Shown here: piece after piece, positions 3,001 to 49,302 of the stretch
Position numbering within the stretch: position 1 is the stretch's first letter
Layout: every line of letters begins with the position of its first letter
DNA from: a virus
Lineage: Duplodnaviria > Caudoviricetes
Virus record (IMG/VR): IMGVR_UViG_3300037963_004246
Location: 1 to 54,861 of that record
Length of the DNA: 54,861 nucleotides
Direction: 5' to 3' (one strand)
Notes under the pieces: model-generated
Databases searched by the model: none
The model's input: the letters and a program-made list of their open reading frames with translations, nothing else
Told to the model about the DNA's origin: nothing
Program-made: the position numbers and the translations under genes

Positions 3001-4569
3001 GCTAAAATCATATTTGAAAGTAGCACCTCCGAAATTCCCTTGAGGTCCCGTAGGTCCTGTTGGACCAGACGGTCCAGACGGCCCCGTAGGTCCGGTAGGA
3101 CCTGTGCTACCCGTAGGTCCTGCAGGTCCCGTTGGGCCTGTTGCTCCTTGAGGAATTGAAAACGCAAACACTTTAGCGGTGTCCGGCCCACTACCTGTTA
3201 CTCCTATTGGTCCGGTAGTGGCGGTAGGGGTTCCGAATCCGGCTGCTGCACCCGTTGGGCCGGTCGGACCTGTTGCGCCTGTTGAACCTGTTGGCCCATC
3301 TGGACCATCCGGTCCTGTGGGGCCAGAAGGCCCTGTTGGTCCTGTGGGTCCTGAAGGTCCGGTCGGTCCTGCTGGACCAGGAGGTCCTGCAACACTTGAA
3401 TCTGCACCCGTAGGACCTGTCGGTCCTGTCGGGCCGGTGGGGCCTGTCGGGCCAGCCGGTCCTTGTAATCCTGTTGGTCCGGTAGGGCCTGTCGGCCCCG
3501 TTGGGCCAGCTGCACCCGTAGGACCTGTAGGGCCTGTTGCACCTCTATCTCCTGAAGTGGAAAAATTAACAACGAGTGGTAGGTTATTAGAAGGTAAAGA
3601 TGCTGATAAAGAATTTACAACATCAACCTCAACGTGGTCTGATTGGCTGGTTAAACCATCAACTCTAAACACCATAAGATTAGTGCCGTCTGCTTTGCAG
3701 ATAGTCAAATACCCCTTCTTACCTACATTGGTTGAGTCATCCCATGATTCAACCCAAGATTCTATCGTATTGCCGTCACTGTCTTCGTGTGAAAAATAAA
3801 CCTTTGTTACTGATGCGACGGTGGCGTTGTTGAACATAAGGTCGCCATCATCAAGATTTGAGCTCGGTGAAGATGTGCTCGTATTGAAGAGTAATTTCAT
3901 ACCACCAAGCCTACCGTCTGGACCTGTTCCTCCCGTAGGGCCTGTTGGACCTGAAGGCCCTGTAGGACCGGTTGGTCCTGGAGGTCCAGCAACAGAAGAT
4001 GCGGGTCCTGTCGGACCTGTAGGTCCTGCCGGTCCTGTGGGACCAGCGGGACCTGTCGGACCAGCGGGACCGGTTGGGCCTGTGGGTCCTGTTGAGCCTG
4101 TCGGACCGCTTGCACTGTTTTGATATGCAACCCAAGTATCTGTTCCGTATTTTCTAACATAGGATTTCTCGAATTGACCTAAAGATTTAGCGAATGCGCT
4201 ACCATTTACTGTTACTCCGGTATCACCTTGAATAGTTACTGTGCCTGACCCCATATTCAAAATACGTAATTCAGTCAAATCAACCGGATAAGGAACGCTT
4301 GAATTGGTGGGGATTGTAATTGTTACTCCACTACCAGAACTTACGAGGACTAATTGCCCCTCGTGAGTGCGTGTTAGAGTAGTGTTTGAGGTTATGGTTG
4401 TTGAATTGGGGCGTATATCCATAGAACGCCCACCGGCAGTTGACCCGTCACCTATGAAAGTCATACCGCTTGTAGTATCTCTGAAAATTTGAGCACCATC
4501 TGGAGTAACAGATATTCTATTTGCTTGAGTATCCGTCAGCAAATTCTTAGCATCTGTTAGTGTCGGCAT
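1..4569 (-). CDS. Collagen-like tail fibre/adhesin, C-terminus beyond window start
   Basis: Read by hand from ATG at 4569 ([11 protein letters not shown]..., GAGGA RBS upstream); frame checked at several points and open at base 1. Long Gly-Pro-X tracts alternate with globular domains; the distal part has N-T-x-x-G repeats like those of trimeric adhesins. Missing from the ORF track because it has no stop in the window. Confidence 0.85.
1487..3035 (-). repeat. Internal duplication of a ~125-aa domain in the fibre (about 1487-1868 and 2654-3035)
   Basis: Both copies read FGGA(S/T)[52 protein letters not shown]...FARTGDKGD; offset 1167 bp, in frame. Confidence 0.85.
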
Positions 4570-15282: not shown

Positions 15283-15405
15283 ATGTTTGAAAGTAGCGTA
15301 AGGTGTAAAGAGTGTGGCTGGTATGCTAAAAGAATGCTACGAGAGAAAGTGCTAAAAGGAGAATGCCCCCACTGTGGAGCATACAAAGGGTTGAAGCCAT
15401 GCTAA
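15283..15405 (+). CDS. Zn-ribbon microprotein
   Basis: 40 aa read by hand, CKECG...CPHCG; fills the gap before the terminase. Confidence 0.6.
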   Translation: MFESSVRCKECGWYAKRMLREKVLKGECPHCGAYKGLKPC

Positions 15406-16877
15406 CCGGATTTAATTTAGAGCGCTCAAAGAGAGACATTCGTTTTTTCTATGAGTGGTGCGGCTATACGTGGGGCGACCACATAGGCGAATGGATGGAT
15501 ATGTTCGGCGATAGAAAAGGTGCTGAAGTGCATCGTGTTTGTATTATTGCACCTCGTGACCACTCAAAATCAACAACTCTTAGAATGAAGATACTTCACC
15601 ACGTTTTATTCGATAAGTGGCGTGATAAGCCCTTTACAGTTTGGTTATTTTCAGCATCTAAGGATTTGGCTGCAAGAAGGCTCGAAGAAATGAAAGAGGA
15701 CTTGAAGCGACATGAAGAATTGCGTAAATTCTTGCATCCCCGTCTTGGGACTAAATTAGAATTGAGGCTTACAAATGGTGCTGTAGTTAGAGCGACGGGT
15801 GTTGGTGCTGCTATTCGTGGTGAGCACCCCGCTGCAATTATTCTTGATGACGTATTAGACGACATGGGCGATATGAACCACGAGGGAATCAGACATTGGT
15901 TTAGAAAGAAAGTGACCCCGATGCTATCCCCCCAAACCAGCATTTATTGTGTTGGAACACCAATGAGCCTAAATGACCTATACCACACCGAAATGTTGGA
16001 AAATAAAACATGGAAATCGGGAACATGGTCTGCTTTGCCTAATTGGGAAGAGCATAGGTCAGACCCATCTGTGGAATTAAAATGTTTGTGGCCTGAATAC
16101 AGGCCCTTGAATTTCTTGCTTGAACAAAAAGAGGCTATGGGTGAATTGGCTTTTGTGCAGGAATATTTGTGTAAGGTGGTTGATGATGAATCTGCTGTCT
16201 ATAAACGTGAGCACTTGCGTAAAAATATGGATATGGAAAAAACAATTGCTTGGGATTCACAAGAAGGGGGGAAGTATGTTATTGGTTTTGACCCAGCACA
16301 AGGTTTGGGTCGTGACTATTCGGTTATGGTCGTTCTTAGGCAGGATGAACAAGGCCAAATACACTTCGTCAATATGTGGCGACGTAATGACTTCAACCCT
16401 GATAAACAGTGTCAGGTAATAGGTGAATGGGTAAATAAATTCGGCAAGTGTCCTCTCGCTGCTGAAGACGTAGGTTTTCAAAGACTTTATCAAAGTCTGT
16501 TAGAAAGAATGGGCTATGTAATAGAATACAGACCGAGCAAGGTAGGGAACAAAGGGCTAAAACAAGGATTGTTGAATAGGGTTCGTGTTTGGTTCGAGCA
16601 GGGAAAGGTTCATTGGCCTTATGGGGATATTGAAACCCGTAATGTGGTAAATCAATTGCTCGATGAGTTCGATGCTCATGTTTGGAAGGCTGGCGATATT
16701 CACGATGTAGGAAAACACAACGATACTGTTATGGCTTTTGCTCACGCCATAGACCAATTCGATTCATTGAAGGGAGAAACAGTAACCTTCGCAAGTAGTA
16801 TAGATAAAGGAGAATGGATGGGTGGAAGACAAGCGCAACCCAGCCGAAACAACTCCCGCTACCCAGGATTATTTTAG
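15399..16877 (+). CDS. terL: Terminase large subunit
   Basis: Walker A-like APRDHSKST, Walker B IILDD, VGTP motif, nuclease IGFDPA and HNDTVMA. Confidence 0.92.
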   Translation: MLTGFNLERSKRDIRFFYEWCGYTWGDHIGEWMDMFGDRKGAEVHRVCIIAPRDHSKSTTLRMKILHHVLFDKWRDKPFTVWLFSASKDLAARRLEEMKEDLKRHEELRKFLHPRLGTKLELRLTNGAVVRATGVGAAIRGEHPAAIILDDVLDDMGDMNHEGIRHWFRKKVTPMLSPQTSIYCVGTPMSLNDLYHTEMLENKTWKSGTWSALPNWEEHRSDPSVELKCLWPEYRPLNFLLEQKEAMGELAFVQEYLCKVVDDESAVYKREHLRKNMDMEKTIAWDSQEGGKYVIGFDPAQGLGRDYSVMVVLRQDEQGQIHFVNMWRRNDFNPDKQCQVIGEWVNKFGKCPLAAEDVGFQRLYQSLLERMGYVIEYRPSKVGNKGLKQGLLNRVRVWFEQGKVHWPYGDIETRNVVNQLLDEFDAHVWKAGDIHDVGKHNDTVMAFAHAIDQFDSLKGETVTFASSIDKGEWMGGRQAQPSRNNSRYPGLF

Positions 16878-17409
16878 TGTGTCGAGCAGCACTGTGGGAT
16901 AAGCCGAAGGGGGGAAGGTAATATGCTGCCCGACTATTACAGCGTGTGCTGCAGACTACTTAAGCATTTTCTTATATAGTAGCCAAGAAAAAATTTTCTC
17001 AAAAATTCCTGCAGGCTGTGGGCGTTGTAAGATACGTCGGTTTTTCGATTTTTGGCGACTTACTATATAAGGTTGACGCCACCAACCTTAATAAGGGGCA
17101 TCCCCATTTTCACTTTGCCCCGCTACGGACGGGGAAGTGGTAGGCGTGTAGTATAACTATACGTTGTATTGGGTGAAAACCTTCGTGAAGGGTTAGTATT
17201 CCATGTATGGGTTGAATCGGCTTCGCAATGAATCGCTAACATTTCATTCCGAAGATAAAATGCGGGTCGGTGTTTGTGGTCGCGAATGAAATAAACGTCA
17301 ATACTTCGGCGGGATTTCCCAACAAAAAATCCACCGGAAGGGTCTTCGGATGCGACAAAAAAATAGACAAAACCACAAACGAATAAAAGGTAAAATGGAA
17401 GTGGAAATC

Positions 17410-17811
17410 ATGGTTGACTATACCAAACAATTGATTGAAACCCCAAAACATGAACCAAAGGCTAAGGGTAGTAAAAGCCGTCAAAGCGCGCAAAGAACCC
17501 CTTATTCGACGCAAAAAATGTTCTACAACAATTTGCGACGAACATACGTGGCCTATCGGGACAATGTGGAAGATTGCGAAAAGGCGAAAGCCGAAGCCGC
17601 AAAGGTGAAGGGTGCGAAAGCCGAAATCACCTTGTCGAAAGACATGAAATCCCACATGACGGCCGCCCTTCAAGGTGCGCTAATGTCCCTAAATGGTGCA
17701 TACACCCGCCCCGATAAGGCCGGTGTTCGAATCCAAAACCTTAGCAATAAGCAATTGGACAAGACGATTCGGGAAGTGAATGACCTTTGCACCCGAATTG
17801 AAGCACTATGA
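17410..17811 (+). CDS. Basic helical hypothetical protein (island gene 1)
   Basis: MVDYTKQL..., 133 aa; Glu only GAA, Gln only CAA. Confidence 0.65.
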   Translation: MVDYTKQLIETPKHEPKAKGSKSRQSAQRTPYSTQKMFYNNLRRTYVAYRDNVEDCEKAKAEAAKVKGAKAEITLSKDMKSHMTAALQGALMSLNGAYTRPDKAGVRIQNLSNKQLDKTIREVNDLCTRIEAL

Positions 17812-18129
17812 TGGTTCGACCATTGGGATGACTTTCAAATGCACCCCACGATAGATTAGACACGGTGGGGGTGTGGGTAGTGGTGGATGGGACACCACAT
17901 GGGGACACCCACACGATAAAGGCGAAGGAACGGAATACGTAAGGGTCGGGGGGGTATATCCCCCCCGATACCGATAAACCACCAACAAGATGGCGTGAAG
18001 GGTTGATGCCCTAAACACCGGATTGGGGTTGCCCCTACGGGGCATTTGTGCTACCATAGCGAATAGGGCCAATGAACGGTTAGAATACCAAACAAGCCAA
18101 ACACAACAAGCGTAGCGACCCAACCGGAA

Positions 18130-18402
18130 ATGTTTGCCGGAAGCGGATATAGCAATGACGATATAGACAACAATGACGACACCAAACCGAACCACCACTT
18201 CATGCGGCTTAATTGGCCGTGTGTAAATTGCGGAACACAAGTCAAGGACACCGAAGGGGATTACTTCGGAAGGCTTGGCTTCCTACCGGAAGGCGCATAC
18301 GATGAAATGTATGAACACTACTTTAACGGTAGGGTGTGGTGTGTAGGGTGCATGGCTAAAAGCGGACTATTCAAGAACCATAACGGGGGTGATAAACAAT
18401 GA
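18130..18402 (+). CDS. Zn-finger hypothetical protein (island gene 2)
   Basis: CVNCG...WCVGC; start uncertain. Confidence 0.6.
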   Translation: MFAGSGYSNDDIDNNDDTKPNHHFMRLNWPCVNCGTQVKDTEGDYFGRLGFLPEGAYDEMYEHYFNGRVWCVGCMAKSGLFKNHNGGDKQ

Positions 18403-18527
18403 TTAGGAACAAGTGTAGCAAGTGTGGGGGATGGGATTCATCCGTCCCCCACAAGTGGCGGGTGATAAACGGCCAATACATCAAATCCATAGGCGTGTGC
18501 CGACAATGCGAAAAGGGGGTGAATTGA
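18399..18527 (+). CDS. Zn-finger microprotein (island gene 3)
   Basis: MIRNKCSKCGG...GVCRQCEKGVN, GGGGGTGA RBS, ATGA overlap. Confidence 0.65.
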   Translation: MIRNKCSKCGGWDSSVPHKWRVINGQYIKSIGVCRQCEKGVN

Positions 18528-18646
18528 TAACCAAGTGTAGGAATGATGTGTGCAACCGACACGGCACTAATACCGACAAGAATGGTAATATGTGGTGTGA
18601 CGATTGCGTAATGCTAATAGCATTCGGTGTAATCGAATTCCATTGA
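18524..18646 (+). CDS. Zn-finger microprotein (island gene 4)
   Basis: TTG start after GGGGGTGA; CRNDVC...WCDDC. Confidence 0.55.
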   Translation: MITKCRNDVCNRHGTNTDKNGNMWCDDCVMLIAFGVIEFH

Positions 18647-18681
18647 TTTCCAAACAATGGGGTTAGGTTCGGACTACGTAA

Positions 18682-18741
18682 GGGGGGTTGGGGGGTCGAA
18701 AGACCGCCCTTCCCCCCGCAAATTTTTTATTTCTTTTTTTT
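18682..18741 (+). terminator. GC-rich hairpin plus T-tract ending the island transcript
   Basis: GGGGGGTTGGGGGGTC-GAAA-GACCGCCCTTCCCCCC followed by TTTTTTATTTCTTTTTTTT. Confidence 0.65.
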
Positions 18742-18850
18742 GAGCACTGAGCCTGCGCAGCCTGAGGCTGACAGCAGAAGCTGTCTGAGAAAAAACTGTG
18801 CAGAAAAACTGTGCAGAAACGCTGACCCAGAAAAACTGACCTAAAGAGTT
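18742..18850. repeat. SAG-dense A-tract cluster 1
   Basis: GCAGCCTGAGGCTG and tandem AAAAACTGTGCAG units; gives T-tracts on the minus strand downstream of a minus-strand gene. Confidence 0.7.
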
Positions 18851-19024
18851 TCACTCTTTCGTGTAGGTCGCATCAACCCTGAGTTTTTTACCGCACACTG
18901 GGCACTGTATTTCGTCGCCGAAGTGGTATGTGCTGAAAGATTCATCTGGTTGAAGAACTGCTAAATTTATTCTGGTGCGTCCTGAACTGCTTTTAAGCAA
19001 ACAACATCTGACATATAATCTCAT
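18851..19024 (-). CDS. Small Cys-containing protein
   Basis: 57 aa by hand, MRLYVRCC...QCPVCGKKL; ATGA overlap. Confidence 0.55.
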   Translation of the reverse strand: MRLYVRCCLLKSSSGRTRINLAVLQPDESFSTYHFGDEIQCPVCGKKLRVDATYTKE

Positions 19025-19371
19025 CTAATCGCCTCTGCCCCTTCTTTCTGCATCTTCCATTCCTCAAAATCGAATTCTGGTAGGCTTGCCTCGATTGGTA
19101 TCTCGTCAATTACTGCACTTGCGAATACTGTATTACAAGCACCCCTGATTCCAAAATGTCTGCATATTATAAATTCCTGAAGTGCCGGCGCTGGCGGGTA
19201 AAACCTCGTTGTGTATAGCACCATTGGGTAATCCTCATTACCGTGTGCGTTGGGGTCGCTGCACCCGCAACTGAATTGCACTTCTCCAACCGACTTCTGG
19301 TTGACGTTCACTGTTATTGGCTTCTGGGAATGAATCTCCCATATCATGGCCTCAAAGTCTTTTTGCTCCAT
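19021..19371 (-). CDS. Hypothetical protein
   Basis: Start MEQKDF about 25 nt below a TATA box (leaderless-type). Confidence 0.6.
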   Translation of the reverse strand: MEQKDFEAMIWEIHSQKPITVNVNQKSVGEVQFSCGCSDPNAHGNEDYPMVLYTTRFYPPAPALQEFIICRHFGIRGACNTVFASAVIDEIPIEASLPEFDFEEWKMQKEGAEAIR

Positions 19372-19388
19372 GTTACTGAATTCTCCAC

Positions 19389-19448
19389 CTACTATATAAG
19401 GGTAGCGACCCTGCAGACTAAAGCCTGCAGAATACCAACTATTATAAG
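19389..19448. promoter_or_regulatory. Divergent promoter pair, each CTGCAG-N10-TATA
   Basis: Minus: CAG GGTCGCTACC CTTATATAGTAG; plus: CAG AATACCAACT ATTATAAG. Confidence 0.75.
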
Positions 19449-19517
19449 CCCCTATGCGGATGGGGACTTGAAGCGGGGACATCGCTATGGTGGTAGGTCG
19501 GTAAGGGAGGCTGAAAA

Positions 19518-20027
19518 ATGTCAGAAAAAACTAAAGTTAGTAGACCGGCCAGACTGCATGATTACCGTAAGAAGGTTGAGGTTGTCGGGACACGGTGTAT
19601 CCGTTCAGCGTATTTCGCAACCGGACACCCAAGCACCGCCGTTGAGGCTGCATTAACAAAGTGGTTAGATGAGATTGAAGAATTAGTAGCGGACTTCGAG
19701 GCTCCTTCATGGGCTAAGAAGATACGAGACTGCGAACCACTATGTGTGTCTACAGGCGGATATAGTTCAGTACACACGCTTGCACTATGGCAAGTGGCAG
19801 GGTATGCCAATCAGATTTCCGATGGGTGCTTCCCTATTCGCAGCGATATTCACGCAATGATACTTTCAATCAGCGTGAAGGGTGCAGCCTCCGACTACGC
19901 ATGGATAGCATTCCAGCATGGGGATGCGATTAAGTGGGTTGAGACTTGCACACGTATGCTTACATTGCTACACGGACAACCGCAGCTTCTTACCGGTATA
20001 GACCCATTTTCAGAGTGCGGCCCTTGA
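19518..20027 (+). CDS. Hypothetical protein
   Basis: 169 aa with GGAGG RBS and upstream TATA. Confidence 0.6.
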   Translation: MSEKTKVSRPARLHDYRKKVEVVGTRCIRSAYFATGHPSTAVEAALTKWLDEIEELVADFEAPSWAKKIRDCEPLCVSTGGYSSVHTLALWQVAGYANQISDGCFPIRSDIHAMILSISVKGAASDYAWIAFQHGDAIKWVETCTRMLTLLHGQPQLLTGIDPFSECGP

Positions 20028-20138
20028 TTGAATAATCAGGGATATTCGGTCAGATTTACGTAACCCCCCTATTGGATTGCAGGCTGGTAGGCGGGGGATA
20101 AATTCATACCCTGAAATACAACTCGTATTAAGGTAACC

Positions 20139-20205
20139 TCTCAAAAGAGACTGAGTAAAAAGAGCCTGAGAAAAGAGAATCTGAAAAAAGAGACTGTAAA
20201 ATCAG
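20139..20205. repeat. SAG-dense A-tract cluster 2
   Basis: Degenerate AAAAGAG(A)..CTG units of about 14 bp between convergent genes. Confidence 0.65.
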
Positions 20206-20375
20206 GTGCTTATTGAATCAGCCACATATCGAGATTTACATTCATGAGAGCAAAAATACAGCGTTAAGAAAATATTCTCATCAACAAAACTGATATCTGT
20301 GCTGACCAATTCAGCCCTGCACATAAAGCAGTATATCGGGCGAGTCTTCAAGTTAAACTGTTCAATCAGATTCAT
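20202..20375 (-). CDS. TRASH/YHS-like Zn-finger microprotein
   Basis: 57 aa by hand; YCFMC...YFCSHEC. Confidence 0.6.
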   Translation of the reverse strand: MNLIEQFNLKTRPIYCFMCRAELVSTDISFVDENIFLTLYFCSHECKSRYVADSIST

Positions 20376-20377
20376 AA

Positions 20378-20668
20378 TCAGCCCTCCAATTCCAGGTTGT
20401 CTTCCCAGACTTTAGCACAGCAGGCTAAGAATAACAGCTTGTTTTCGGGAAACTCACCATCCAGCATACCTTCAAGCAGCATCATAAGAACAGCGGTTGT
20501 TTCGTTATCCTGTTCATTATCAGTTACATATCCTTGAGGGGGTCGCCACAGGTTTAACATAGGAGTTACCCAATCGAGAGGCTCTTTGGAGCCAGCCAAG
20601 ATAGTCCTGGACTTTTCGAGCGCTTCGTAATTCCAGTCATTCGGTGAGACTTCTCTATACGCGGGCAT
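20378..20668 (-). CDS. Hypothetical protein
   Basis: Start MPAYRE, 2 nt after the upstream stop. Confidence 0.55.
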   Translation of the reverse strand: MPAYREVSPNDWNYEALEKSRTILAGSKEPLDWVTPMLNLWRPPQGYVTDNEQDNETTAVLMMLLEGMLDGEFPENKLLFLACCAKVWEDNLELEG

Positions 20669-20670
20669 AA

Positions 20671-20871
20671 TCAGAGCCCCCCTTCCCAATCTCGCTTCAA
20701 ACAGTCGTTGCATTGAGTATTCCAATACGCAGCGGCGTTACCGCAGAATTCAAAGGAGTCGCAAGGTATTGAGTTACAAAGGCAGAGAGAAGTCCCAGAG
20801 GCCGGATTGCAGCACCCACACCAGATTGTGTGTGAGCACTTGTCGCAGATTTTTTGTTCACAGTCGGACAT
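20671..20871 (-). CDS. Cys-rich microprotein
   Basis: MSDCEQKICDKC...; 12 Cys in 66 aa. Confidence 0.55.
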   Translation of the reverse strand: MSDCEQKICDKCSHTIWCGCCNPASGTSLCLCNSIPCDSFEFCGNAAAYWNTQCNDCLKRDWEGGL

Positions 20872-20996
20872 CAGCATCCCCCGTTGAGTTTCCAAGTGAG
20901 GCATCGGGCCGAGCAAAATCGGCCAGACACATCAATCAGATTAGTGCAGTCAGGGTGTCGGCATCGGGGGCGGGCTACGGGTGCAGCTTTTTCCAT
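20871..20996 (-). CDS. Zn-finger microprotein
   Basis: MEKAAPVARPRCRHPDC...FCSARC; ATG about 25 nt below TATA. Confidence 0.55.
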   Translation of the reverse strand: MEKAAPVARPRCRHPDCTNLIDVSGRFCSARCLTWKLNGGC

Positions 20997-21014
20997 AGAC
21001 AGCCTATATTTCAT

Positions 21015-21039
21015 CTACTATATAAGGGTTGGTATCCTG
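21015..21039 (-). promoter_or_regulatory. CAG-N10-TATA promoter
   Basis: CAG GATACCAACC CTTATATAGTAG. Confidence 0.75.
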
Positions 21040-21110
21040 AAGCCTGAGCCTGCAGTTTACCAAAGACTATAAACCCGCATCCCATCTTATAGGCGGGGTT
21101 CGTTTCCAAC

Positions 21111-21290
21111 CAGCCTGGAGGCTGCAGCCTGAGGCTGGAGGCTGAAAAAAGCAGCCTGGTAGAAAAAACCTGCGTAAAAAATGCTGCAGAAAAACCTGGC
21201 AGGAGCATTCTGCCGAGAAAAAGCTCAAAAAGCAGCCTCGCCTGGCAGGTCGGCGTTTTAAACAGCAACCTGACTCAGCGGGCCGAGAAA
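21111..21290. repeat. SAG-dense A-tract cluster 3
   Basis: Contains the exact GCAGCCTGAGGCTG of cluster 1, then A5-6 tracts separated by CAG/CTG/GAG/CTC. Confidence 0.7.
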
Positions 21291-21372
21291 ATATCTCATA
21301 GACCAGCGCAGGGTAGGTATCCTCACAGTTATCCGCTGTTAGAGGACACACTCGCTGGTGCAGACCGTATCG

Positions 21373-21534
21373 CTAAATCTGTCTGAAAGAGGGCCGCAGC
21401 CATGCTGGCTCACGAGCGCTACCAGATGTGAGTTCCTTCTGAATCTCCTTCTCAAGAGCACGATTTAGCAGGAGTTTATTTAGCCCCTCACAGGCAGTGA
21501 ATTTGAATTCAGGCATTCTGATACCGCTGTTCAT
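21373..21534 (-). CDS. Small hypothetical protein
   Basis: 53 aa by hand; ATGA overlap. Confidence 0.45.
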   Translation of the reverse strand: MNSGIRMPEFKFTACEGLNKLLLNRALEKEIQKELTSGSAREPAWLRPSFRQI

Positions 21535-22187
21535 TCCGACTCCTCCCCAGGAAATCTGATGTCGTATTTACTCATACACTTACTGCAATAGAACTGACTG
21601 TGATGAGCAGCACGATTACAGCAGGTCGGTTGTGAAAAGCCTGGCCTGTTCATCTCACACATACGCTCGACATCAACATCTCGTATGAAGCGACTGTAAT
21701 CTACACCGCTGGGGACTCCAGGCCACTCATGAGGGTCATATATCCACCCTCGTGTTAGAGCATGGAGTGCAGCCCTCGGCTTATGCAGGTCGTATTCTTT
21801 ACTGCCTGGAATTTCAGCATAACCTATGAAAGTCCAATGCGAGCCTGGCTGACCCCACTCGTTGAACAGACCCATTGATTGTTCTGTTTCACGCCTGAGT
21901 TGTTCAGGAGGCATACACATATTCGCTGGGTTTTCTTCAGCCCACCATTTTTCCTCATCTTCAGCAGAATAATTTTCAAGGGGCTCATCCCATGTTTCTG
22001 GGGAACAGCGAGCATAACGAGAAGCAGGGTCGTGAAACTGCTCATACTTTTTCTGGTGGTCAGCCCACCATTCTTCAGTATTGATTACAGTATGTTCCCT
22101 GTTGCTGGTAGGGGAGATGAAAGTCCACTCCCAATTGAACATCTGTTTTCGCATCTGCTCGACAGTCATAACTATGGTTCTCATCAA
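21531..22187 (-). CDS. Hypothetical protein
   Basis: 218 aa, Trp-rich, C-terminal Cys cluster. Confidence 0.6.
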   Translation of the reverse strand: MMRTIVMTVEQMRKQMFNWEWTFISPTSNREHTVINTEEWWADHQKKYEQFHDPASRYARCSPETWDEPLENYSAEDEEKWWAEENPANMCMPPEQLRRETEQSMGLFNEWGQPGSHWTFIGYAEIPGSKEYDLHKPRAALHALTRGWIYDPHEWPGVPSGVDYSRFIRDVDVERMCEMNRPGFSQPTCCNRAAHHSQFYCSKCMSKYDIRFPGEESE

Positions 22188-22558
22188 GCATCACCTGCCT
22201 TCCATAACTCATCGTGCAGTATTATTTCGGAGGAAAACATCCAGAAGAATAAGTCCCACTCGATAGCACCACCCTGACCTTGCGAGTTATATTCTTCATA
22301 ACTCGGATTATTCAGGCAATACATTGAGTCTAACGAATGAGCACTCGTGCCGGAGACTCTTGTAAAGTATGTGGGGTTCAGGCATAATTGGTCGAGTATA
22401 GGTTCATCTGTAAAGGGATTCTGCGGGTGCGAGTATAGCATTTTATCCTGCATAACAGCGGGCTTTTCAGTTTCCCATGTGCGTCTGATTGTTCTCAGTC
22501 TCATGGGTCGGGTTAAAAATTCAGGGCGTTGGTTTTCAGTTTGTTTTTGTTGAGTCAT
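22184..22558 (-). CDS. Hypothetical protein
   Basis: 124 aa with GGAGA RBS. Confidence 0.6.
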   Translation of the reverse strand: MTQQKQTENQRPEFLTRPMRLRTIRRTWETEKPAVMQDKMLYSHPQNPFTDEPILDQLCLNPTYFTRVSGTSAHSLDSMYCLNNPSYEEYNSQGQGGAIEWDLFFWMFSSEIILHDELWKAGDA

Positions 22559-22576
22559 ATTAAATTCTCCAATTGG

Positions 22577-22745
22577 TGGAGTGAGGCGGAATCTGCAAGG
22601 TTGCAGGTATCCTTCGTGAAGGGGTTTTGCTGATGCTGGGATGTATCAGTCTTGTGCAGTTTTAACCACCTCACTCCTTAATGTATTCTGCCCCCGTAGA
22701 GTTTCCCCTACGGGAGCATTACGTAAATCAGCAGATCTCATTGCA
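22577..22745 (-). ncRNA. Candidate structured intergenic RNA
   Basis: Stem GCTCCCGTAG/CTACGGGGGC and long stem GGAGTGAGGTGG/CCGCCTCACTCC enclosing further hairpins; no family recognised. Confidence 0.4.
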
Positions 22746-22756
22746 GGGTAACCCAA

Positions 22757-23236
22757 TCAGGATTTCTTTGCAACAGGCTTCTTAGCAGTCTTAGCCTTAG
22801 CAGGAGTCTTTGCAGACTTCTTAGCCGCAGGTTTCTTAGCCGCAGGCTTCTTAGCCTTAGCCTCAGATGGGGTCTTCTCCTTCTTTGGCTCGGTCTTGAC
22901 TACTCCGAATTCAGCAACAACTTTGTTAGCCTCAATGATAGGCAGGGATGCACCCAGACCGTAAGACTCAGATGTTGAAACCACCTTAAGTCGGCGGCTC
23001 ACGGCAGCAGTAGTAGCGCGCTTGCTGGATTTGTATTCCTCACGGTTGAGGATAATATCCATAGAGTGCAAGTGCTGCAGTGCATCTACGAGGTGTTGCT
23101 TAACTCTCGCTTGGTCAGCCTTAGTTAGCGTCTCCAATTGAGCTTTGTATTGTCCCAGCACGAATGCGTCTGTAGCGAATTGCTGCACACGGTTAATGCT
23201 GTTAGCACACTGTTTCGATAGAGTTTGGTTCTTCAC
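22757..23236 (-). CDS. Basic protein with histone-H1-like K/A/P tail
   Basis: C-terminal KAKKPAAKKPAAKKSAKTPAKAKTAKKPVAKKS; GGTGA RBS. Confidence 0.65.
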   Translation of the reverse strand: MKNQTLSKQCANSINRVQQFATDAFVLGQYKAQLETLTKADQARVKQHLVDALQHLHSMDIILNREEYKSSKRATTAAVSRRLKVVSTSESYGLGASLPIIEANKVVAEFGVVKTEPKKEKTPSEAKAKKPAAKKPAAKKSAKTPAKAKTAKKPVAKKS

Positions 23237-23336
23237 AGAACATCACCAACCCTGCCTTTCGCTGAGTCGTATCCCAGAACGAGTGCGAGGGATGGGTCGG
23301 CGTTCCCAGATTTTCGCATGGTGAGGGTAGCAAGTC

Positions 23337-23361
23337 CTACTATATATACTATGGCATTCTG
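23337..23361 (-). promoter_or_regulatory. CAG-N10-TATA promoter
   Basis: CAG AATGCCATAG TATATATAGTAG. Confidence 0.7.
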
Positions 23362-23389
23362 AAGGCTGCAGCCGCCAGATTGGATTCTG

Positions 23390-23749
23390 TCAGATTGCAT
23401 TTTGAACCTCCTGTATAGAGTAAATAACTTCCTCAAAAGAATGCTCCAATTCACATTCCTCACAAAATAAACCTGATGAGGTGGGGATAAGACGAGATAC
23501 TTTACCGTCAGCAGAAAATACTTTAACCTGATGAGCGGGCTTACCATAGGAGTCTGGATAATGACCCTGCTTTATTAAAGCAGTCTCCACCGAAGAGAAT
23601 TGATACACATACTGAACCCTATCGCTGACGAAATCATCTGGGAGTATTCTCCAAGTCCACAGTTTCTTATGTGGGTCTGGCCAGCGAATCTCCCAAAAAA
23701 CAAATTTATTTACAGCACCGCAAAGAGAACACTCCGTTTGAAATCTCAT
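23390..23749 (-). CDS. Hypothetical Zn-binding protein
   Basis: Likely start MRFQTECSLCG; second CEEC pair. Confidence 0.55.
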   Translation of the reverse strand: MRFQTECSLCGAVNKFVFWEIRWPDPHKKLWTWRILPDDFVSDRVQYVYQFSSVETALIKQGHYPDSYGKPAHQVKVFSADGKVSRLIPTSSGLFCEECELEHSFEEVIYSIQEVQNAI

Positions 23750-23950
23750 AGGTTCGTGCTCCTCGGGTTGGGGCATCGGCAGTATTGGTCTGTTCCATGC
23801 TCTTCCAGACACCACTTACAACCTCTCCAATCATATACGCTCATTCTTCTTCCTCCCACTCTATATCGTTAATGCTCGCATCACCGTTTCTGACCTGTTG
23901 CCAGAACTCCTTACATATCGTTGCGGAGACTCGTATGAAGGAGTCTGGGT

Positions 23951-24877
23951 TCATTCTTCCTCCTCCGATTCAGCATATTCCATAACACGCCTTACAGCCT
24001 TTCCGGTGTCGCCTGATACTTTGACTATGTAATTCTTATCTCCTTTAAGAGCCTTAAGCCAAGAGCCTATGTATGCAGTTAAATTATTACGAGAAGTATA
24101 ATCAACACCAAATTGAGCACAAATAAGAGCAGCACCCATCTCAGCAATTAATTCTTCCTGTGCGTATTCCCTGTCGCCAAAGACTCCCATCTTACGCTTA
24201 AAGTGAGGACCTGTTGAATGTATTACTTCGTGAGCCCAAGTATTCATACGCTCTTCGACAGAAGTAAATCTTGAGTCTTTCGGCATATTTATTAAATTAC
24301 GAGATGGGGAATAGAACGCTGAATCGCCGCCCCTCTTGATTGTAATATCATTATCTTCACAGTATTTGTAAATGACTGATAACATAGCCTCTTCACTTTC
24401 AGTAATAGGAATATCAGGGTGGTCGTGTTCGAGTGGCGGCATCCCTGTTTGGTCGCGGTTAAATACAGCCCACCACTTCTTCCAGAATATACGCTTGAGC
24501 GGGTATGTTCCGTCTGCTTGCTTAGGCTGGTCTTTATCAGGAACCTCTTTAGTATTCCAAAAGAAAACCATAGAAGAAGTCTCGCCGGACTTCACTCCAT
24601 ACCATTCAGTATTTTCGCCAATCTGACCTAATGCTTTGTTGTGTTGAGCAGACGCATCCGACCAGTTTTTGTATGTCCCCCATTGGTTGGAGTCATAAGA
24701 TTGAGAAGCGGCAATCAGTGGTAATATGAATTGATTATTACCAGAATATTCGTTCCCAGAATCTATATTATAATGTCTTCCGAGTATAACCCAGCCTCGT
24801 TCCCAGGGTGGGCATCCAGATTCTAATTCAGTAATCAGATGTTGAGTTAATTCTTGTTCATAGTCCCGTTTCGGCAT
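23951..24877 (-). CDS. ardC: ArdC-like antirestriction protein (ssDNA-binding domain plus zincin-like domain)
   Basis: PPWERGW, YSGNN, WGTYKNW, VFNRDQT, AFYSP..I.MP, HEVIHSTG, YAQEELIAE, YIGSWL motifs. Confidence 0.85.
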   Translation of the reverse strand: MPKRDYEQELTQHLITELESGCPPWERGWVILGRHYNIDSGNEYSGNNQFILPLIAASQSYDSNQWGTYKNWSDASAQHNKALGQIGENTEWYGVKSGETSSMVFFWNTKEVPDKDQPKQADGTYPLKRIFWKKWWAVFNRDQTGMPPLEHDHPDIPITESEEAMLSVIYKYCEDNDITIKRGGDSAFYSPSRNLINMPKDSRFTSVEERMNTWAHEVIHSTGPHFKRKMGVFGDREYAQEELIAEMGAALICAQFGVDYTSRNNLTAYIGSWLKALKGDKNYIVKVSGDTGKAVRRVMEYAESEEEE

Positions 24878-24903
24878 TTCGCATCAAAGTGAGCAAATCA
24901 TAA

Positions 24904-24928
24904 CTACTATATAAGACCTATTACCCTG
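24904..24928 (-). promoter_or_regulatory. CAG-N10-TATA promoter of ardC
   Basis: CAG GGTAATAGGT CTTATATAGTAG. Confidence 0.75.
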
Positions 24929-24952
24929 CAGATTGCGCCCTGTAATCTGGTA

Positions 24953-25294
24953 TCACCATTCTCCTTCTAATTGCGCTCTATCGGAGTGGATATCTCCTGA
25001 CAGGTATGTATCGCTCCATACCCCACATTCTTTACAGCGAAGAGACGCAGCAAAAACCAGACGAGGTTGCTTAGACAGTAAATTATTTTGTATGTGAAAA
25101 ACATACGGCTCATGCTCTATCCTGATTTCCCAATCGTGCGGATAAACCTGCATCTTGTGCTGGTGAGGTGGAAATGGTATTCTTGCTCCTCTTTGAGTAA
25201 AGACTAATGTAGTCTCTAACCATGTTTGAGCCTCACACACCTCCCAGATGCTCTTCGCGTTCGGTATTATGTCCTCATATTTCAGGCTGTTCAT
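24953..25294 (-). CDS. Hypothetical protein
   Basis: 113 aa, GGAGG upstream, CKECG motif. Confidence 0.55.
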   Translation of the reverse strand: MNSLKYEDIIPNAKSIWEVCEAQTWLETTLVFTQRGARIPFPPHQHKMQVYPHDWEIRIEHEPYVFHIQNNLLSKQPRLVFAASLRCKECGVWSDTYLSGDIHSDRAQLEGEW

Positions 25295-25360
25295 TTCTTC
25301 TCAGTCCTCCCTTCGCGGAGCAGCAGGACCGCCCCGCCTAAAGAGAAATAAATCACCAAG

Positions 25361-25418
25361 AATATAAAGCCTTCGATTCTGCAGCGTATAGTATTCAGAT
25401 TACTAATGTTTATAGACC
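25361..25418. promoter_or_regulatory. Divergent promoter pair, each CAG-N10-TATA
   Basis: Minus: CAG AATCGAAGGC TTTATATT; plus: CAG ATTACTAATG TTTATAGACC. Confidence 0.75.
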
Positions 25419-40795: not shown

Positions 40796-41019
40796 TGGCC
40801 TCTGGTCGTAATATCAGAATACGCAAACGTATTCTCGATGTTATGGAAGTCGGAGAAACATATACTACGAGAGAAATATGGGAAAAACTGTATTATGACG
40901 AAAGAGGGACAAGACGCTTCTTAGGGTCTGTCCTTCAATTATCAATGGTAATGTCCAGAACTCCTGGAATACAAAGAATGGGAAAGAAGAGGCAAGAAAA
41001 GAGGTGGCGACGTGATTAG
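40795..41019 (+). CDS. Winged-helix protein (paralog family)
   Basis: RIRKRILDVM..GETYTTREI...GSVLQLSMVMSRTPGI. Confidence 0.6.
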   Translation: MASGRNIRIRKRILDVMEVGETYTTREIWEKLYYDERGTRRFLGSVLQLSMVMSRTPGIQRMGKKRQEKRWRRD

Positions 41020-42157
41020 ATTAGAAACAGATATTATCCATGACGAATATACAGCAATTGCTGAAAAGATGTTCGATGTGCCTCTTGAAGAACGGATGGT
41101 TACTGAAATACTAAACAACGTATCCCCACCTCAAGAGTGGTCTATTGGTTGTATCTATGGGCCATCAGGTGCAGGTAAGACTACCCTGCTAACTACTAAC
41201 TTCGGTGAGCCATACGAACACGATTGGAAACGAGGCGAAGCAATCATCTCATCCATTGGTTGTATTGGTCTTTTCCCAGAACAGGCTGCAAGTATCCTAT
41301 CATCGGTTGGTCTGTCGTCTGTCCCTTCGTGGTGCAGACCATACAATACACTTTCAAACGGTGAGCAATTCCGAGCCGATTTAGCGGCGGCAGTTGCTCA
41401 TGGTATAGTCAATGGTGGTATTATCTGCATTGACGAATTTACCTCAGTCGTTGATAGAAATGTGGCTAAGGCAGCATCATACGCCTTGCAGAAGCACATA
41501 AGAAAGTCTGATGCTAAGGTGGTTGTAGCCTCCTGCCATGAAGACATATTAGAGTGGTTGATGCCCGATTGGGTGTATAACCCTCTTGAGGGTAAAACCA
41601 TCCATGCAGACGTCGGGGGGTGGTCTTTTCAACGACCTCCAATTGAACTCGAAGTATTCAGGGCGGAATATGAAGCGTGGGACCTGTTCAAAGCACATCA
41701 CTATTTGACTGAGGAATTGAACAAGGCGGCTAAAATTTTCATGGCCTGTTGGAATGGGAAACCCGTAGCAGTAACCTGCATACTACCATTCCCTAACGGC
41801 GGCATACAGAATGGCTGGCGAGCAACCCGTAGTGTTGTTTTGCCGGATTATCAGGGTTTAGGTATAGGTGTTAGATTGTCTGACTTTGTAGCATCTATGT
41901 GTAAGGCAGGTGGTGGTCGCTACTTTAGCAGACACTCACACTTTGCCTTCGCTAAACATAGATTCGATAATCCAGATTGGAAGGAAACAGCCGTATCTCG
42001 TAAAGTGCATACGCATTCAGGCAATGAAGAATGGGGTTGGAAACAGAACCTAAGAGAATGTTATTCGTTTGAATACATAGGTGCTGAAGCACCTGCGGAA
42101 GTAGCAGAATTGTTTTGGGGTTGGAAGGTTGATGCTGGCGGAGTGGAGTGGATATAG
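41012..42157 (+). CDS. ABC-type ATPase fused to Mom-like GNAT acyltransferase (putative DNA-modifying enzyme)
   Basis: GPSGAGKTT, LSNGEQFR signature, ICIDEF, SCH; C-terminal FKAHHYL and RSVVLPDYQGLGIG acyl-CoA motif; no TM segments. Confidence 0.8.
   Translation: MIRLETDIIHDEYTAIAEKMFDVPLEERMVTEILNNVSPPQEWSIGCIYGPSGAGKTTLLTTNFGEPYEHDWKRGEAIISSIGCIGLFPEQAASILSSVGLSSVPSWCRPYNTLSNGEQFRADLAAAVAHGIVNGGIICIDEFTSVVDRNVAKAASYALQKHIRKSDAKVVVASCHEDILEWLMPDWVYNPLEGKTIHADVGGWSFQRPPIELEVFRAEYEAWDLFKAHHYLTEELNKAAKIFMACWNGKPVAVTCILPFPNGGIQNGWRATRSVVLPDYQGLGIGVRLSDFVASMCKAGGGRYFSRHSHFAFAKHRFDNPDWKETAVSRKVHTHSGNEEWGWKQNLRECYSFEYIGAEAPAEVAELFWGWKVDAGGVEWI

Positions 42158-46481: not shown

Positions 46482-49302
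<2,821 letters not shown>

What the first reader, a model, noticed from the sequence alone, without database searches (positions are those of the whole stretch)
17019..18741. 1.72-kb island with no SAG trinucleotide on either strand
Seen: no CAG, GAG, CTG or CTC between 17019 and 18741. Four of 64 trinucleotides would give roughly 100 hits at even composition, and they are common elsewhere in the window. The exclusion covers coding and non-coding DNA: Glu is always GAA, Gln always CAA, and RBSs read GGGGGTGA rather than GGAGGTGA. Both borders are sharp and the right one abuts a SAG-dense cluster. SAC, AAG and TAG are not excluded. Inference: the segment must stay free of a SAG-directed modification, or evade a SAG-recognising host factor. 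It may be the first-entering or first-transcribed DNA, conceptually like the first-step-transfer region of phage T5. I do not know of a described trinucleotide exclusion zone like this.
Basis: partly seen in the sequence, partly recalled or inferred. Interest (0 to 1): 0.95.

Follow-up and report, generated by a model that had tools for sequence, protein, structure and literature searches.

The report
Trinucleotide-free early gene cassette in marine virus
A 1.7-kb gene cassette just after the packaging gene of an uncultured marine virus contains not one copy of the three-letter word SAG on either DNA strand, related viruses keep the same blank zone around unrelated genes, and this points to an unknown DNA-cutting or DNA-marking activity that the virus must dodge there.

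Summary
No CAG, GAG, CTG or CTC occurs across a 1726-bp gap (17016-18742). The next largest gap in the 54.9-kb genome is 139 bp. About 103 sites are expected at the genome's rate, and CTS/SAG is the best of 6725 short motifs tested.

Four lineages carry a SAG-free zone at the same place, directly after terL: the window, L026/L027, L001/L028 and L002. Their contents are largely non-homologous. Only a roughly 55-bp left-border block is shared.

The ORFs encode normal amounts of Glu, Gln and Leu through other codons. About 154 sites are expected in 11 ORFs and none is seen. In the alignable parts, 157 substitutions created no site. This indicates continuing DNA-level selection, not chance, chimera or one-off hypermutation.

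The zone runs from a promoter-like border element to a hairpin plus T-run. It then abuts a SAG-dense repeat and palindrome cluster in 3 of 3 lineages with a right border.

The genome also avoids CTAG, GATC, GTAC and AGCT almost completely, so motif avoidance is this lineage's habit.

Best reading (about 45%): a hypervariable leading or pre-early region, like T5 FST or T7 early DNA, kept free of targets of an unidentified SAG-directed DNA activity. Physical ends, base modification and the agent remain untested.

The parts
15363..16877 (+). Large terminase subunit gene (terL), the left neighbour of the island
   Evidence: PHROGs phrog_38, terminase large subunit, E=7e-45. The 22 related loci were found with it.
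16971..17071 (.). Left-border element. Two 11-nt inverted arms (TATA-like) are centred on about 17021. They enclose the only non-coding block conserved among the three lineages (16983-17038). The last SAG site (CTG at 17016) lies inside that block.
   Evidence: Inverted repeat I1, 100% complementary. Conserved block from blastn and alignment. A pattern built on it recovered only island-bearing contigs.
17019..18741 (.). SAG/CTS-free island: no CAG, GAG, CTG or CTC on either strand
17061..17072 (+). Promoter-like TATA motif TACTATATAAGG facing into the island. Exact copies also lie at 19390 and 21016, with one-mismatch copies at 24905 (+) and 16970 (-).
   Evidence: Promoter function is inferred, not shown.
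17075..17394 (+). Non-coding leader, well conserved with L026/L027 from about 17120 onwards. It has GC hairpins and CUUCGG-type loops and matches no Rfam family.
   Evidence: 4 of 79 predicted pairs show compensatory change in only 3 sequences, 2 of them identical, so the structure is not established.
17395..17811 (+). ORF1, 138 aa (153 aa if started at 17350). It has a basic, disordered N-terminus and a three-helix bundle. It evolves fast and matches no family.
   Evidence: Only 23% identity to the L027 counterpart. No detectable homology to the first ORFs of L001 and L002. AlphaFold2 pLDDT 72.5, Foldseek best E=0.38.
17812..18129 (.). Intergenic stretch with three copies of CCCCACGATA-like repeats and a G7-TATAT-C7 palindrome (17948-17966)
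18130..18402 (+). ORF2, 90 aa, with two CxxC pairs (zinc-ribbon-like)
   Evidence: 73% identity to the L027 counterpart with pN/pS 0.50. Model pLDDT 66, no structural match.
18399..18527 (+). ORF3, 42 aa, CxxC...CxxC, overlapping the stop of ORF2. GGGGGTGA lies upstream.
18524..18646 (+). ORF4, about 40 aa and Cys-rich. The start is uncertain. GGGGGTGA lies upstream.
18682..18741 (+). G/C-run hairpin followed by a long T-rich run, a terminator-like right end of the island. L001 and L002 have the same arrangement.
   Evidence: My reading of the sequence; the consensus scan did not list it.
18742..18850 (.). SAG-dense cluster of direct repeats and palindromes (13-nt unit AAAAACTGTGCAG, 3.6 copies; palindrome CAGCCT.AGGCTG), between the island and the 3' end of the minus-strand genes
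   Evidence: Analogous dense clusters follow the islands of L001 and L002.

Best explanation
The island is a hypervariable early gene cassette placed directly after the terminase gene. It comprises a promoter, a leader, one fast-evolving helical protein and several tiny zinc-ribbon proteins, and it ends in a terminator. I read it as the leading (first-entering, first-expressed) part of the virion DNA, as in the T5 first-step-transfer region or the T7-type early region. It is kept wholly free of the double-stranded word SAG/CTS because, at that stage, a DNA-level activity that acts at SAG can still hit the DNA. Most likely this is a host nuclease, or a modification-dependent nuclease acting on SAG sites marked in the previous host. 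The rest of the genome, which has normal SAG content, would be either still outside the cell or protected by the cassette's products. The SAG-dense repeat and palindrome cluster at the inner border would be the stop or hand-over signal. What is shown: the exclusion, its conservation across non-homologous cassettes, selection at the nucleotide level, the border anatomy, and the lineage's general habit of motif avoidance. What is inferred: first entry, the nature of the SAG-directed agent, and the role of the dense cluster.
For: (1) The exclusion is absolute and strand-symmetric, and covers the promoter, leader, ORFs and intergenic DNA. (2) The same feature occurs at the same place in 2 of 22 TerL-related loci (L001, L002). 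It also occurs in all 4 further border-pattern hits that I measured (L025-L028). This gives four lineages whose island DNA is not alignable, or only partly alignable. (3) Selection is at the DNA level. The 11 ORFs recoded with the genome's codon usage would carry about 154 sites, with 0 observed. The window and L027 differ by 157 substitutions in alignable island DNA, where about 28 would be expected to create a site; none does. In the flank, 122 substitutions go with 35 private sites. The ribosome-binding-like GGGGGTGA replaces the GGAGG-type motif only here. (4) The island diverges far faster than its flank: up to 23% and 12.7% against 2.9%, though the 23% may be inflated by misalignment of its first 100 nt. 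ORF1 has been replaced. This is typical of leading, anti-defence regions (abstract of PMC12455610). (5) Position and anatomy fit. The conserved border block and TATA-like motif lie directly after terL. A hairpin and T-run close the island. The densest 100-bp SAG cluster of the genome then follows, with repeats and palindromes. [quoted passage not shown] (6) The genome avoids CTAG (0 against 138), GATC (1 against 171), GTAC (2 against 155) and AGCT (15 against 205). Related lineages avoid different sets, so target avoidance is this group's evasion strategy. (7) Outside the island SAG is not avoided: CAG/CTG O/E is 1.3-1.5. The same TATA-like motif also heads SAG-containing units. So what is special about the island is its place or timing, not its promoter class.
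Against: There is no evidence on physical termini or order of entry. All laid runs are contigs, and contigs from several samples run through both borders. The contig has no terminal overlap and no second copy of the island. No island protein matches a known anti-defence or any other family. I know of no prokaryotic nuclease or defence with a 3-bp SAG specificity, and none appeared in my literature searches. The host is unknown. Why the SAG-dense cluster should sit at the inner border is not explained by target avoidance alone. The 17 more distant relatives (TerL about 64%) with 1.2-10 kb of sequence downstream of terL have no such island for any 2-4-letter motif.
Confidence: 0.45

Rival explanations
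1. The virus (or its host) places a bulky or regulatory modification at SAG/CTS on viral DNA. The cassette must stay unmodified because modified sites would block its transcription or the binding of factors needed at once after entry. The dense cluster would then be a modification-dependent roadblock.
For: The exclusion is strand-symmetric and includes the promoter. A SAG-dense cluster closes the unit in 3 of 3 lineages with a right border. A dNMP-kinase-like gene and many unknown ORFs sit in the replication module.
Against: N6/N4, D12 and C5 methyltransferase, ThyA-like and TGT families all gave no match in six-frame searches, while the controls matched. No DNA-modification family turned up in the ORFs scanned; not every ORF was scanned with every library. 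SAG is not depleted in the other intergenic or promoter regions, where CAG/CTG O/E is 1.5. The same TATA-like motif drives SAG-containing units. The record is only 81% complete, so a gene could be missing.
Confidence: 0.2
2. This is a zone free of protospacer-adjacent motifs (PAMs). SAG or CTS would be the PAM of the host's CRISPR system. The first-injected end, where spacers are preferentially acquired, is kept without PAMs so that it can be neither sampled nor targeted.
For: This gives the same positional logic as the best explanation. PAMs are 2-3 bp and act on either strand. Preferential spacer acquisition from the injected end is recalled from the literature and not checked here.
Against: Absolute exclusion implies a strong cost per site, which a PAM without a matching spacer does not impose. 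SAG is not a PAM I can recall for any system. The host and its CRISPR type are unknown. No tool result bears on it directly.
Confidence: 0.07
3. This is a replication feature. CTS would be the trinucleotide start site of the replicative primase. The island, next to an iteron-like array that could be an origin, would be a zone where no lagging-strand primer can start.
For: Primases recognise trinucleotides; E. coli DnaG at CTG is recalled, not tested. Iteron-like repeats adjoin the island. The virus has its own PolB, clamp loader and clamp.
Against: No benefit of a primer-free zone is evident. Similar repeat arrays at 20143-20196 and 21111-21260 have no adjoining SAG-free zone. Cumulative GC and AT skew has its extremes at 13.6-13.8 kb and 49.7-50.1 kb, not at the island. 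No primase was identified.
Confidence: 0.06
4. A SAG-targeted mutator, or past hypermutation (A to G within SAG), erased the sites, rather than lineages with sites being removed by a lethal hit.
For: All four islands are enriched in GGG/CCC (1.9-2.6x) and CGG/CCG (2.1-4.6x), the products of SAG to SGG change. GGGGGTGA stands where GGAGGTGA would be expected.
Against: Given the island's dinucleotide make-up, GGG/CCC (96 against 88) and CGG/CCG (62 against 68) are as expected. The ORFs keep ordinary Glu, Gln and Leu content through GAA, CAA, TTR and CTW codons, where Gly, Arg or Pro replacements would be expected. The state is maintained through 157 later substitutions. There is no reverse transcriptase and no template copy.
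Confidence: 0.05
5. This is RNA-level avoidance. The cassette's transcripts must escape a sequence-specific endoribonuclease, as ACA-less mRNAs escape MazF.
For: All credible ORFs are on one strand, and the zone matches a promoter-to-terminator unit.
Against: Both complementary sets (CAG+GAG and CTG+CTC) are absent from the same strand, each with 20-50 expected. The zone begins about 45 bp upstream of the TATA-like motif, so it includes untranscribed DNA.
Confidence: 0.04
6. Artefact: an assembly chimera, synthetic DNA or a chance gap.
For: None found.
Against: -ln P is about 95, 43 and 94 in three lineages. Independent contigs from other samples and years span both borders. Natural sequence variants all remain SAG-free.
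Confidence: 0.01

Closest known systems
First-step-transfer (FST) region of phage T5
   Same: A discrete terminal segment carries small pre-early genes. It is bounded on the inner side by a non-coding stretch rich in repeats and palindromes (passage read in bioRxiv 10.64898/2026.04.02.716235). That T5 FST DNA lacks EcoRI sites is recalled from memory and was not seen in a call.
   Different: Here the avoided word is a degenerate 3-bp motif, about 100 expected sites, not a 6-bp site. The segment is 1.3-1.7 kb against about 10 kb. No homology to T5 genes was found. Two-step entry is not shown.
Leading (first-injected) region of Autographiviridae that decides sensitivity to a Type I R-M system (PMC12455610, abstract read)
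   Same: Absence of the target motif from the leading region alone is enough for escape, although the motif occurs elsewhere in the genome. Leading regions are highly variable and often carry anti-defence genes. In T7-type maps the terminase gene lies at the far end, so in a circular view terL is followed by the early region (recalled).
   Different: That motif is a long bipartite Type I site with a few copies. Here every one of about 100 expected trinucleotide sites is missing, and the cognate system is unknown.
Leading region of conjugative plasmids (PMC13478746, abstract read)
   Same: It is the first-entering DNA, is enriched in anti-defence genes, and is GC-richer than the rest. All four islands are likewise GC-richer than their flanks.
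   Different: That study found no consistent depletion of 4-8-bp palindromes in leading regions. Here depletion is total, and for a non-palindromic 3-bp word.
Genome-wide restriction-site (palindrome) avoidance in phages and archaeal viruses
   Same: The same genome lacks CTAG, GATC and GTAC almost entirely, and 30 of 64 hexamer palindromes.
   Different: The SAG exclusion is local with sharp borders. SAG is at or above expectation in the rest of the genome.
Chlorovirus frequent-cutting nickases and methyltransferases with 2-3-bp sites (for example R^AG and CCD types; recalled, not checked here)
   Same: They show that DNA enzymes with trinucleotide specificity exist in a virus-host conflict.
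   Different: No methyltransferase or nuclease of that kind was found in this genome. The motif differs. The hosts are eukaryotic algae.

Membership tests
Leading / first-step-transfer region with target-site avoidance | Lies at the virion DNA end that enters the cell first | not testable with these tools
   Only Logan contigs were available, with no read starts. The contig has no terminal overlap. IMG/VR classes the record as linear and 81% complete.
Leading / first-step-transfer region with target-site avoidance | Target motif absent locally but present in the rest of the genome | tested here: met
   0 sites in 1723 bp against 3268 in the genome. Outside the island CAG/CTG O/E is 1.3-1.5.
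Leading / first-step-transfer region with target-site avoidance | Hypervariable among close relatives | tested here: met
   Island DNA is not alignable between the window, L001 and L002. It is a mosaic against L027, with divergence of up to 23% (possibly inflated by misalignment) and 12.7%, against 2.9% in the flank.
Leading / first-step-transfer region with target-site avoidance | Encodes anti-defence or host-takeover proteins | tested here: inconclusive
   No match in PHROGs, the Atlas, viral contigs or Foldseek-PDB. Island proteins were not scanned against Pfam or PADLOC.
Leading / first-step-transfer region with target-site avoidance | Own promoter at the outer end and a stop signal (repeats, palindromes) at the inner end | tested here: inconclusive
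   Sequence features are present: a TATA-like motif, a hairpin with T-run, repeats, a palindrome and a SAG-dense cluster. Their function is not shown.
Virus-encoded short-motif DNA modification or R-M | A DNA methyltransferase or base-modification gene in the genome | tested here: not met
   PF01555, PF02086, PF00145, PF00303 and PF01702 gave no match while the controls matched. No DNA-modification family appeared in the ORFs scanned; libraries differed between ORFs. The record is 81% complete.
Virus-encoded short-motif DNA modification or R-M | Modified bases at the motif in virion DNA | not testable with these tools
   No native long-read data were available.
Diversity-generating retroelement / targeted hypermutation | Reverse transcriptase and a template/variable repeat pair | tested here: not met
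   No RVT_1 match. The island has no second copy; the only hit is 14 nt at E=0.34.
RNase-target-free transcript (MazF / ACA-less type) | Motif missing from the transcribed strand only | tested here: not met
   The motif and its complement are both absent, and untranscribed upstream DNA is included.
Direct terminal repeat | Second copy at the other genome end, or doubled read depth with read-start pile-ups | tested here: inconclusive
   There is no second copy in the contig. However, the contig is incomplete and repeats collapse in assemblies. Contig depth is uninformative.

The most novel reading that the evidence does not exclude
Marine, probably archaeal, tailed viruses deliver their genome in stages. 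A pre-early cassette of 1.3-1.7 kb is made invisible to a so far unknown DNA-targeting system with a three-base (SAG/CTS) specificity. A SAG-dense array acts as the gate for the rest of the genome. That would reveal both a new class of very-short-motif defence (or host-shutoff nuclease) and a T5-like two-step entry outside the T5 group.
Probability: 0.25. Interest if true: 0.92.

Novelty: new variant of a known kind. Interest (0 to 1): 0.82.

Why it matters
Local avoidance of a restriction target in first-entering DNA is known for rare 6-bp or bipartite sites. Here about 100 expected sites of a 3-bp word are all missing, and the blank zone is preserved while its genes are swapped for unrelated ones. 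That requires a cost per single site, so some DNA-level activity with trinucleotide specificity must exist in these virus-host pairs, and none is described for prokaryotes as far as I could find. The island also gives a sequence-only marker for the leading or early end of uncultured viral genomes. It is a compact source of candidate counter-defence proteins (the fast-evolving ORF1 and the zinc-ribbon proteins). The same scan, for motif-free islands next to terL, could be run across viral metagenomes to see how general the strategy is.

Tried and rejected
- DNA similarity to GenBank phages (near and distant modes): no match.
- Rfam on 16500-19500: only a sub-threshold match at the terminator hairpin, 20 bits against a gathering score of 80. 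There are no tRNAs. The sigma-70 promoter scan was below the shuffle expectation.
- ORF1 and ORF2: no PHROGs family, no Atlas look-alike for ORF1, and no relatives in viral contigs. AlphaFold2 models have pLDDT 72.5 and 66. Foldseek against PDB gave nothing better than E=0.38 (generic helical bundles) and E=2.5.
- Right-flank protein (19518-20027) as bait: only L002 was recovered.
- GroEL as bait in species genomes, to hint at a host: only 42-44% identity to FCB-group bacteria, which is uninformative.
- PDB sequence searches of four unknown large ORFs gave nothing usable.
- Laying runs: all four were contigs, so starts, ends, strand and depth could not be read. The RNA-labelled run is a viral metagenome and does not show transcription.
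- The records of L026 and of the 51-55-kb relatives (L004, L014, L021) are not held. L026 could not be extended, and gene content of island-bearing and island-less genomes could not be compared.
- A general scan for any 2-4-letter motif-free island in the 20 other TerL loci gave scores of 6-12, against 43-95 for the three islands.
- Cumulative skew shows nothing at the island.
- Supplementary files of papers were not consulted. They may hold terminus or motif data for the T5 and Murciavirus studies.
Full report
**1. The observation**

The window is a whole virus record of 54,861 bp, classed as linear and about 81% complete by CheckV. It holds 3268 SAG/CTS sites, one per 16.8 bp. There is a single gap of 1726 bp between the CTG at 17016 and the GAG at 18742, and the next longest gap is 139 bp.

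CAG/CTG and CTC/GAG each show the gap on their own, with nearly the same borders, at 60x and 44x their mean spacing. No other strand-paired trinucleotide exceeds 17x. About 103 sites are expected at the genome's rate, and about 51 from a first-order Markov model of the island's own composition. Of 6725 IUPAC words of 2-4 letters, CTS gives the most extreme gap, with -ln P about 95. AAG, TAG, CAC and GAC are at normal levels in the island.

- Glu is always GAA and Gln always CAA.
- The genome's only two GGGGGTGA both lie in the island. One has an ATG six bases downstream. The other lies just upstream of the start I assigned at 18524.
- The right border abuts the densest 100-bp SAG window of the genome, with 20 sites against a background of 6.1 +/- 2.2. 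With 200-bp windows, denser places exist at 21.1 kb and 1.2 kb.

**2. Not an artefact**

A Tara-type contig (L025) matches 16428-21412 at 99.8%. A 4366-bp contig from another sample spans 16807-21171, and a more divergent contig from a 2025 estuary sample crosses the left border.

**3. Relatives**

TerL recovered 22 loci from viral contigs. Two of them have a SAG-free zone immediately after terL: L001 (88% TerL identity) with 1294 bp, and L002 (76%) with 1454 bp. Here too CTS is the best-scoring word, with -ln P 43 and 94.

Of the other 20 loci, three end inside terL (L006, L021, L022). The remaining 17 have about 64% TerL identity and 1.2-10 kb of sequence downstream of terL. None has a SAG gap above 312 bp, or any other motif-free island; their scores are 6-12.

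The island DNA of the window, L001 and L002 does not align at all, although the flanks do at 72-76%. Only a block of about 55 bp at the left border (16983-17038) is shared. A pattern built on that block found only these contigs in viral contigs. In metagenome contigs it found six records: two with the same length and match position as L001 and L002, and four measured ones. In all four measured ones the SAG-free stretch starts at the block.

L026 and L027 are a fourth lineage. Their flank is 97% identical to the window, the leader up to 23% diverged (this figure may be inflated by misalignment of its first 100 nt), ORF1 is replaced by a 23%-identity homologue, and the next part is 12.7% diverged. 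All of it is still SAG-free. The first ORFs of L001 and L002 show no detectable homology to the window's ORF1.

**4. Selection, not accident**

The 11 plausible island ORFs of the four lineages encode ordinary proteins: Leu 6.1%, Glu 4.1% and Gln 3.4%. Recoding them with the genome's codon usage gives a summed mean of about 154 SAG sites, and 8 of the 11 ORFs were never site-free in 2000 trials. The real genes have none.

In alignable island DNA the window and L027 differ at 157 positions. Between 16% and 20% of random single changes would create a site, so about 28 were expected. None exists in either sequence. The flank's 122 substitutions go with 35 private sites. The substitutions that read laying listed for three other samples also create no site when applied together. 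That list was partial: 40 of 517 differences were shown.

ORF2 has pN/pS 0.50 against L027, as expected for a real, fast-evolving gene. All islands are rich in GG/CC and CpG and poor in AGA/TCT. Given the dinucleotide content, GGG/CCC and CGG/CCG are as expected. I read this as the consequence of building GC-rich stems and Arg/Ser codons without SAG, not as proof of an A-to-G mutator.

**5. Anatomy**

The left border lies at the centre of an 11-nt perfect inverted repeat whose arms are TATA-like, at 16971-16981 and 17061-17071. The arm facing the island, TACTATATAAGG, recurs exactly at 19390 and 21016, and with one mismatch at 24905, all on the plus strand. The island then contains, in order:
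- a leader of about 320 nt, conserved with L027, with no Rfam match;
- ORF1, with a basic tail and a three-helix bundle;
- a repeat- and palindrome-rich spacer;
- three overlapping small Cys-rich ORFs;
- a G/C-run hairpin with a long T-run.

Beyond the right border lie tandem 13-nt units and a CAGCCT.AGGCTG palindrome. The 3' ends of the minus-strand genes meet the island there. The first 100 bp beyond the islands of L001 and L002 are also SAG-dense, in the top 0.4% and top 3% of their loci, with lineage-specific repeats.

**6. The virus**

It encodes:
- terL, an Mre11-like exonuclease and a weak portal match;
- family-B polymerase, an RFC-like clamp loader, AAA_24, a PD-(D/E)XK nuclease and GroEL;
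- a PCNA-like clamp;
- an ERCC4 nuclease, an ArdC-like protein and a dNMP-kinase-like protein;
- an ABC-ATPase fused to GNAT.

GroEL is of the bacterial type. The polymerase's best matches among deposited viruses are haloarchaeal tailed viruses at 23-25% identity. TerL is at most 23% identical to any cultured phage. Magroviruses of marine group II archaea are reported to carry a bacterial-type GroEL inside the replication cluster and to resemble haloviruses (passages of PMC5434244). An archaeal host is therefore plausible but not shown. The runs that hold the sequence are marine, seawater and estuary metagenomes.

**7. What bears on mechanism**

- Both complementary sets are missing and untranscribed DNA is included, so the constraint is on double-stranded DNA, not RNA.
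- Outside the island SAG is not avoided. CAG/CTG is the most over-represented trinucleotide in intergenic DNA, with O/E 1.5. The same promoter-like motif also heads SAG-containing units. So the island's place or time is what is special, not its promoter class.
- No DNA methyltransferase, ThyA-like, TGT or reverse-transcriptase family is detectable.
- The genome almost completely lacks CTAG, GATC and GTAC, and largely lacks AGCT and CGCG. It also lacks 30 of 64 hexamer palindromes, with 237 palindromic hexamers seen against 526 expected. In the control, 400 non-palindromic hexamers gave 5644 against 5590.
- Related lineages avoid different sets: the 64% group lacks GATC, AGCT and CGCG but keeps CTAG and GTAC. 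Target avoidance is thus this group's general answer to DNA-cutting defences.
- A 3-bp word may be too frequent to clear from 55 kb. This last step is inference: clearing it only where the DNA is exposed first is the economical solution.

**8. Comparison with what is known**

The closest described cases are these:
- The T5 first-step-transfer region, whose inner boundary is a repeat- and palindrome-rich injection stop signal (passage).
- Murciaviruses, where absence of a Type I motif from the first-injected region alone gives escape, and where leading regions are hypervariable and carry anti-defence genes (abstract).
- Plasmid leading regions, which are GC-rich but not consistently motif-depleted (abstract).

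None of these involves a trinucleotide or an absolute exclusion of about 100 expected sites. Five of my literature searches targeted such a case and returned none. Membership in the leading-region kind rests on features I could test only in part. The defining one, first entry, is untested.

**9. Verdict**

The finding is real, conserved, under strong selection and unexplained by any annotated function. My best account, at about 0.45, is a leading or pre-early cassette cleared of targets of an unidentified SAG-directed DNA activity. The rivals are a virus- or host-placed SAG modification (0.2), a PAM-free zone (0.07), a primase-site-free zone (0.06), a SAG mutator (0.05), RNA-level avoidance (0.04) and artefact (0.01). 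I rate it a new variant of a known kind, with high interest.

Noticed in passing
window 1-54861; loci L001-L028: Genome-wide, lineage-specific near-total avoidance of 4-bp palindromes. In the window: CTAG 0 (138 expected), GATC 1 (171), GTAC 2 (155), AGCT 15 (205), CGCG 15 (64), and 30 of 64 hexamer palindromes absent. The TerL-64% relatives instead lack GATC, AGCT and CGCG but keep CTAG and GTAC. L001 lacks GATC and AGCT; L002 lacks CTAG and GATC.
   Followed up: partly
window 16949-25379: CTGCAG is the only clearly over-represented hexamer palindrome by base composition (26 against 10). 11 of its 26 copies lie in 16.9-25.4 kb, several about 15-20 nt downstream of the TATA-like motif TACTATATAAGG. 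It may be an operator or initiator box.
   Followed up: partly
window 17061, 19390, 21016, 24905 (+) and 16970 (-): There are five copies of one TATA-like motif (three exact). The four plus-strand copies point rightwards, although most ORFs between 18.85 and 25.3 kb are on the minus strand. The copy at 21016 faces a repeat array, not an ORF.
   Followed up: partly
window 20143-20196 and 21111-21260: Two further arrays of A-run plus SAG-rich repeats of 13-15 nt. The palindrome CAGCCT.AGGCTG occurs at 18758 and 21125 only. The stretch from 21.05 to 21.35 kb is the SAG-densest 200-bp region of the genome.
   Followed up: no
window 41012-42157: An ABC-type ATPase fused to a GNAT acetyltransferase domain (phrog_11143, E=1e-109, function unknown) sits in the replication module.
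   Followed up: no
window 46733-48286: A bacterial-type GroEL (E=1e-130 to an ancestral FCB-group chaperonin) lies inside the replication gene cluster, as reported for magrovirus groups B and C.
   Followed up: partly
window 23951-24877 (-): An ArdC-like protein (ssDNA-binding N-domain plus zincin-like metallopeptidase) among the minus-strand genes to the right of the island.
   Followed up: no
window 1031-4107: Long runs of 9-nt-period repeats (GGTCCTGTN type, collagen-like Gly-X-Y coding) in tail-fibre-like ORFs. The contig ends lie in this kind of sequence, which may be why the assembly stops there.
   Followed up: no
L002 3198-3536: L002 carries an extra 112-aa ORF between terL and the conserved border block that the window lacks. 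It lies outside the SAG-free zone.
   Followed up: no
window 18835-20400: One contig of run X20 joins 18835 to 20400 with 39 other letters between. This is a natural variant lacking the two genes just right of the island (tables 5c and 8).
   Followed up: no
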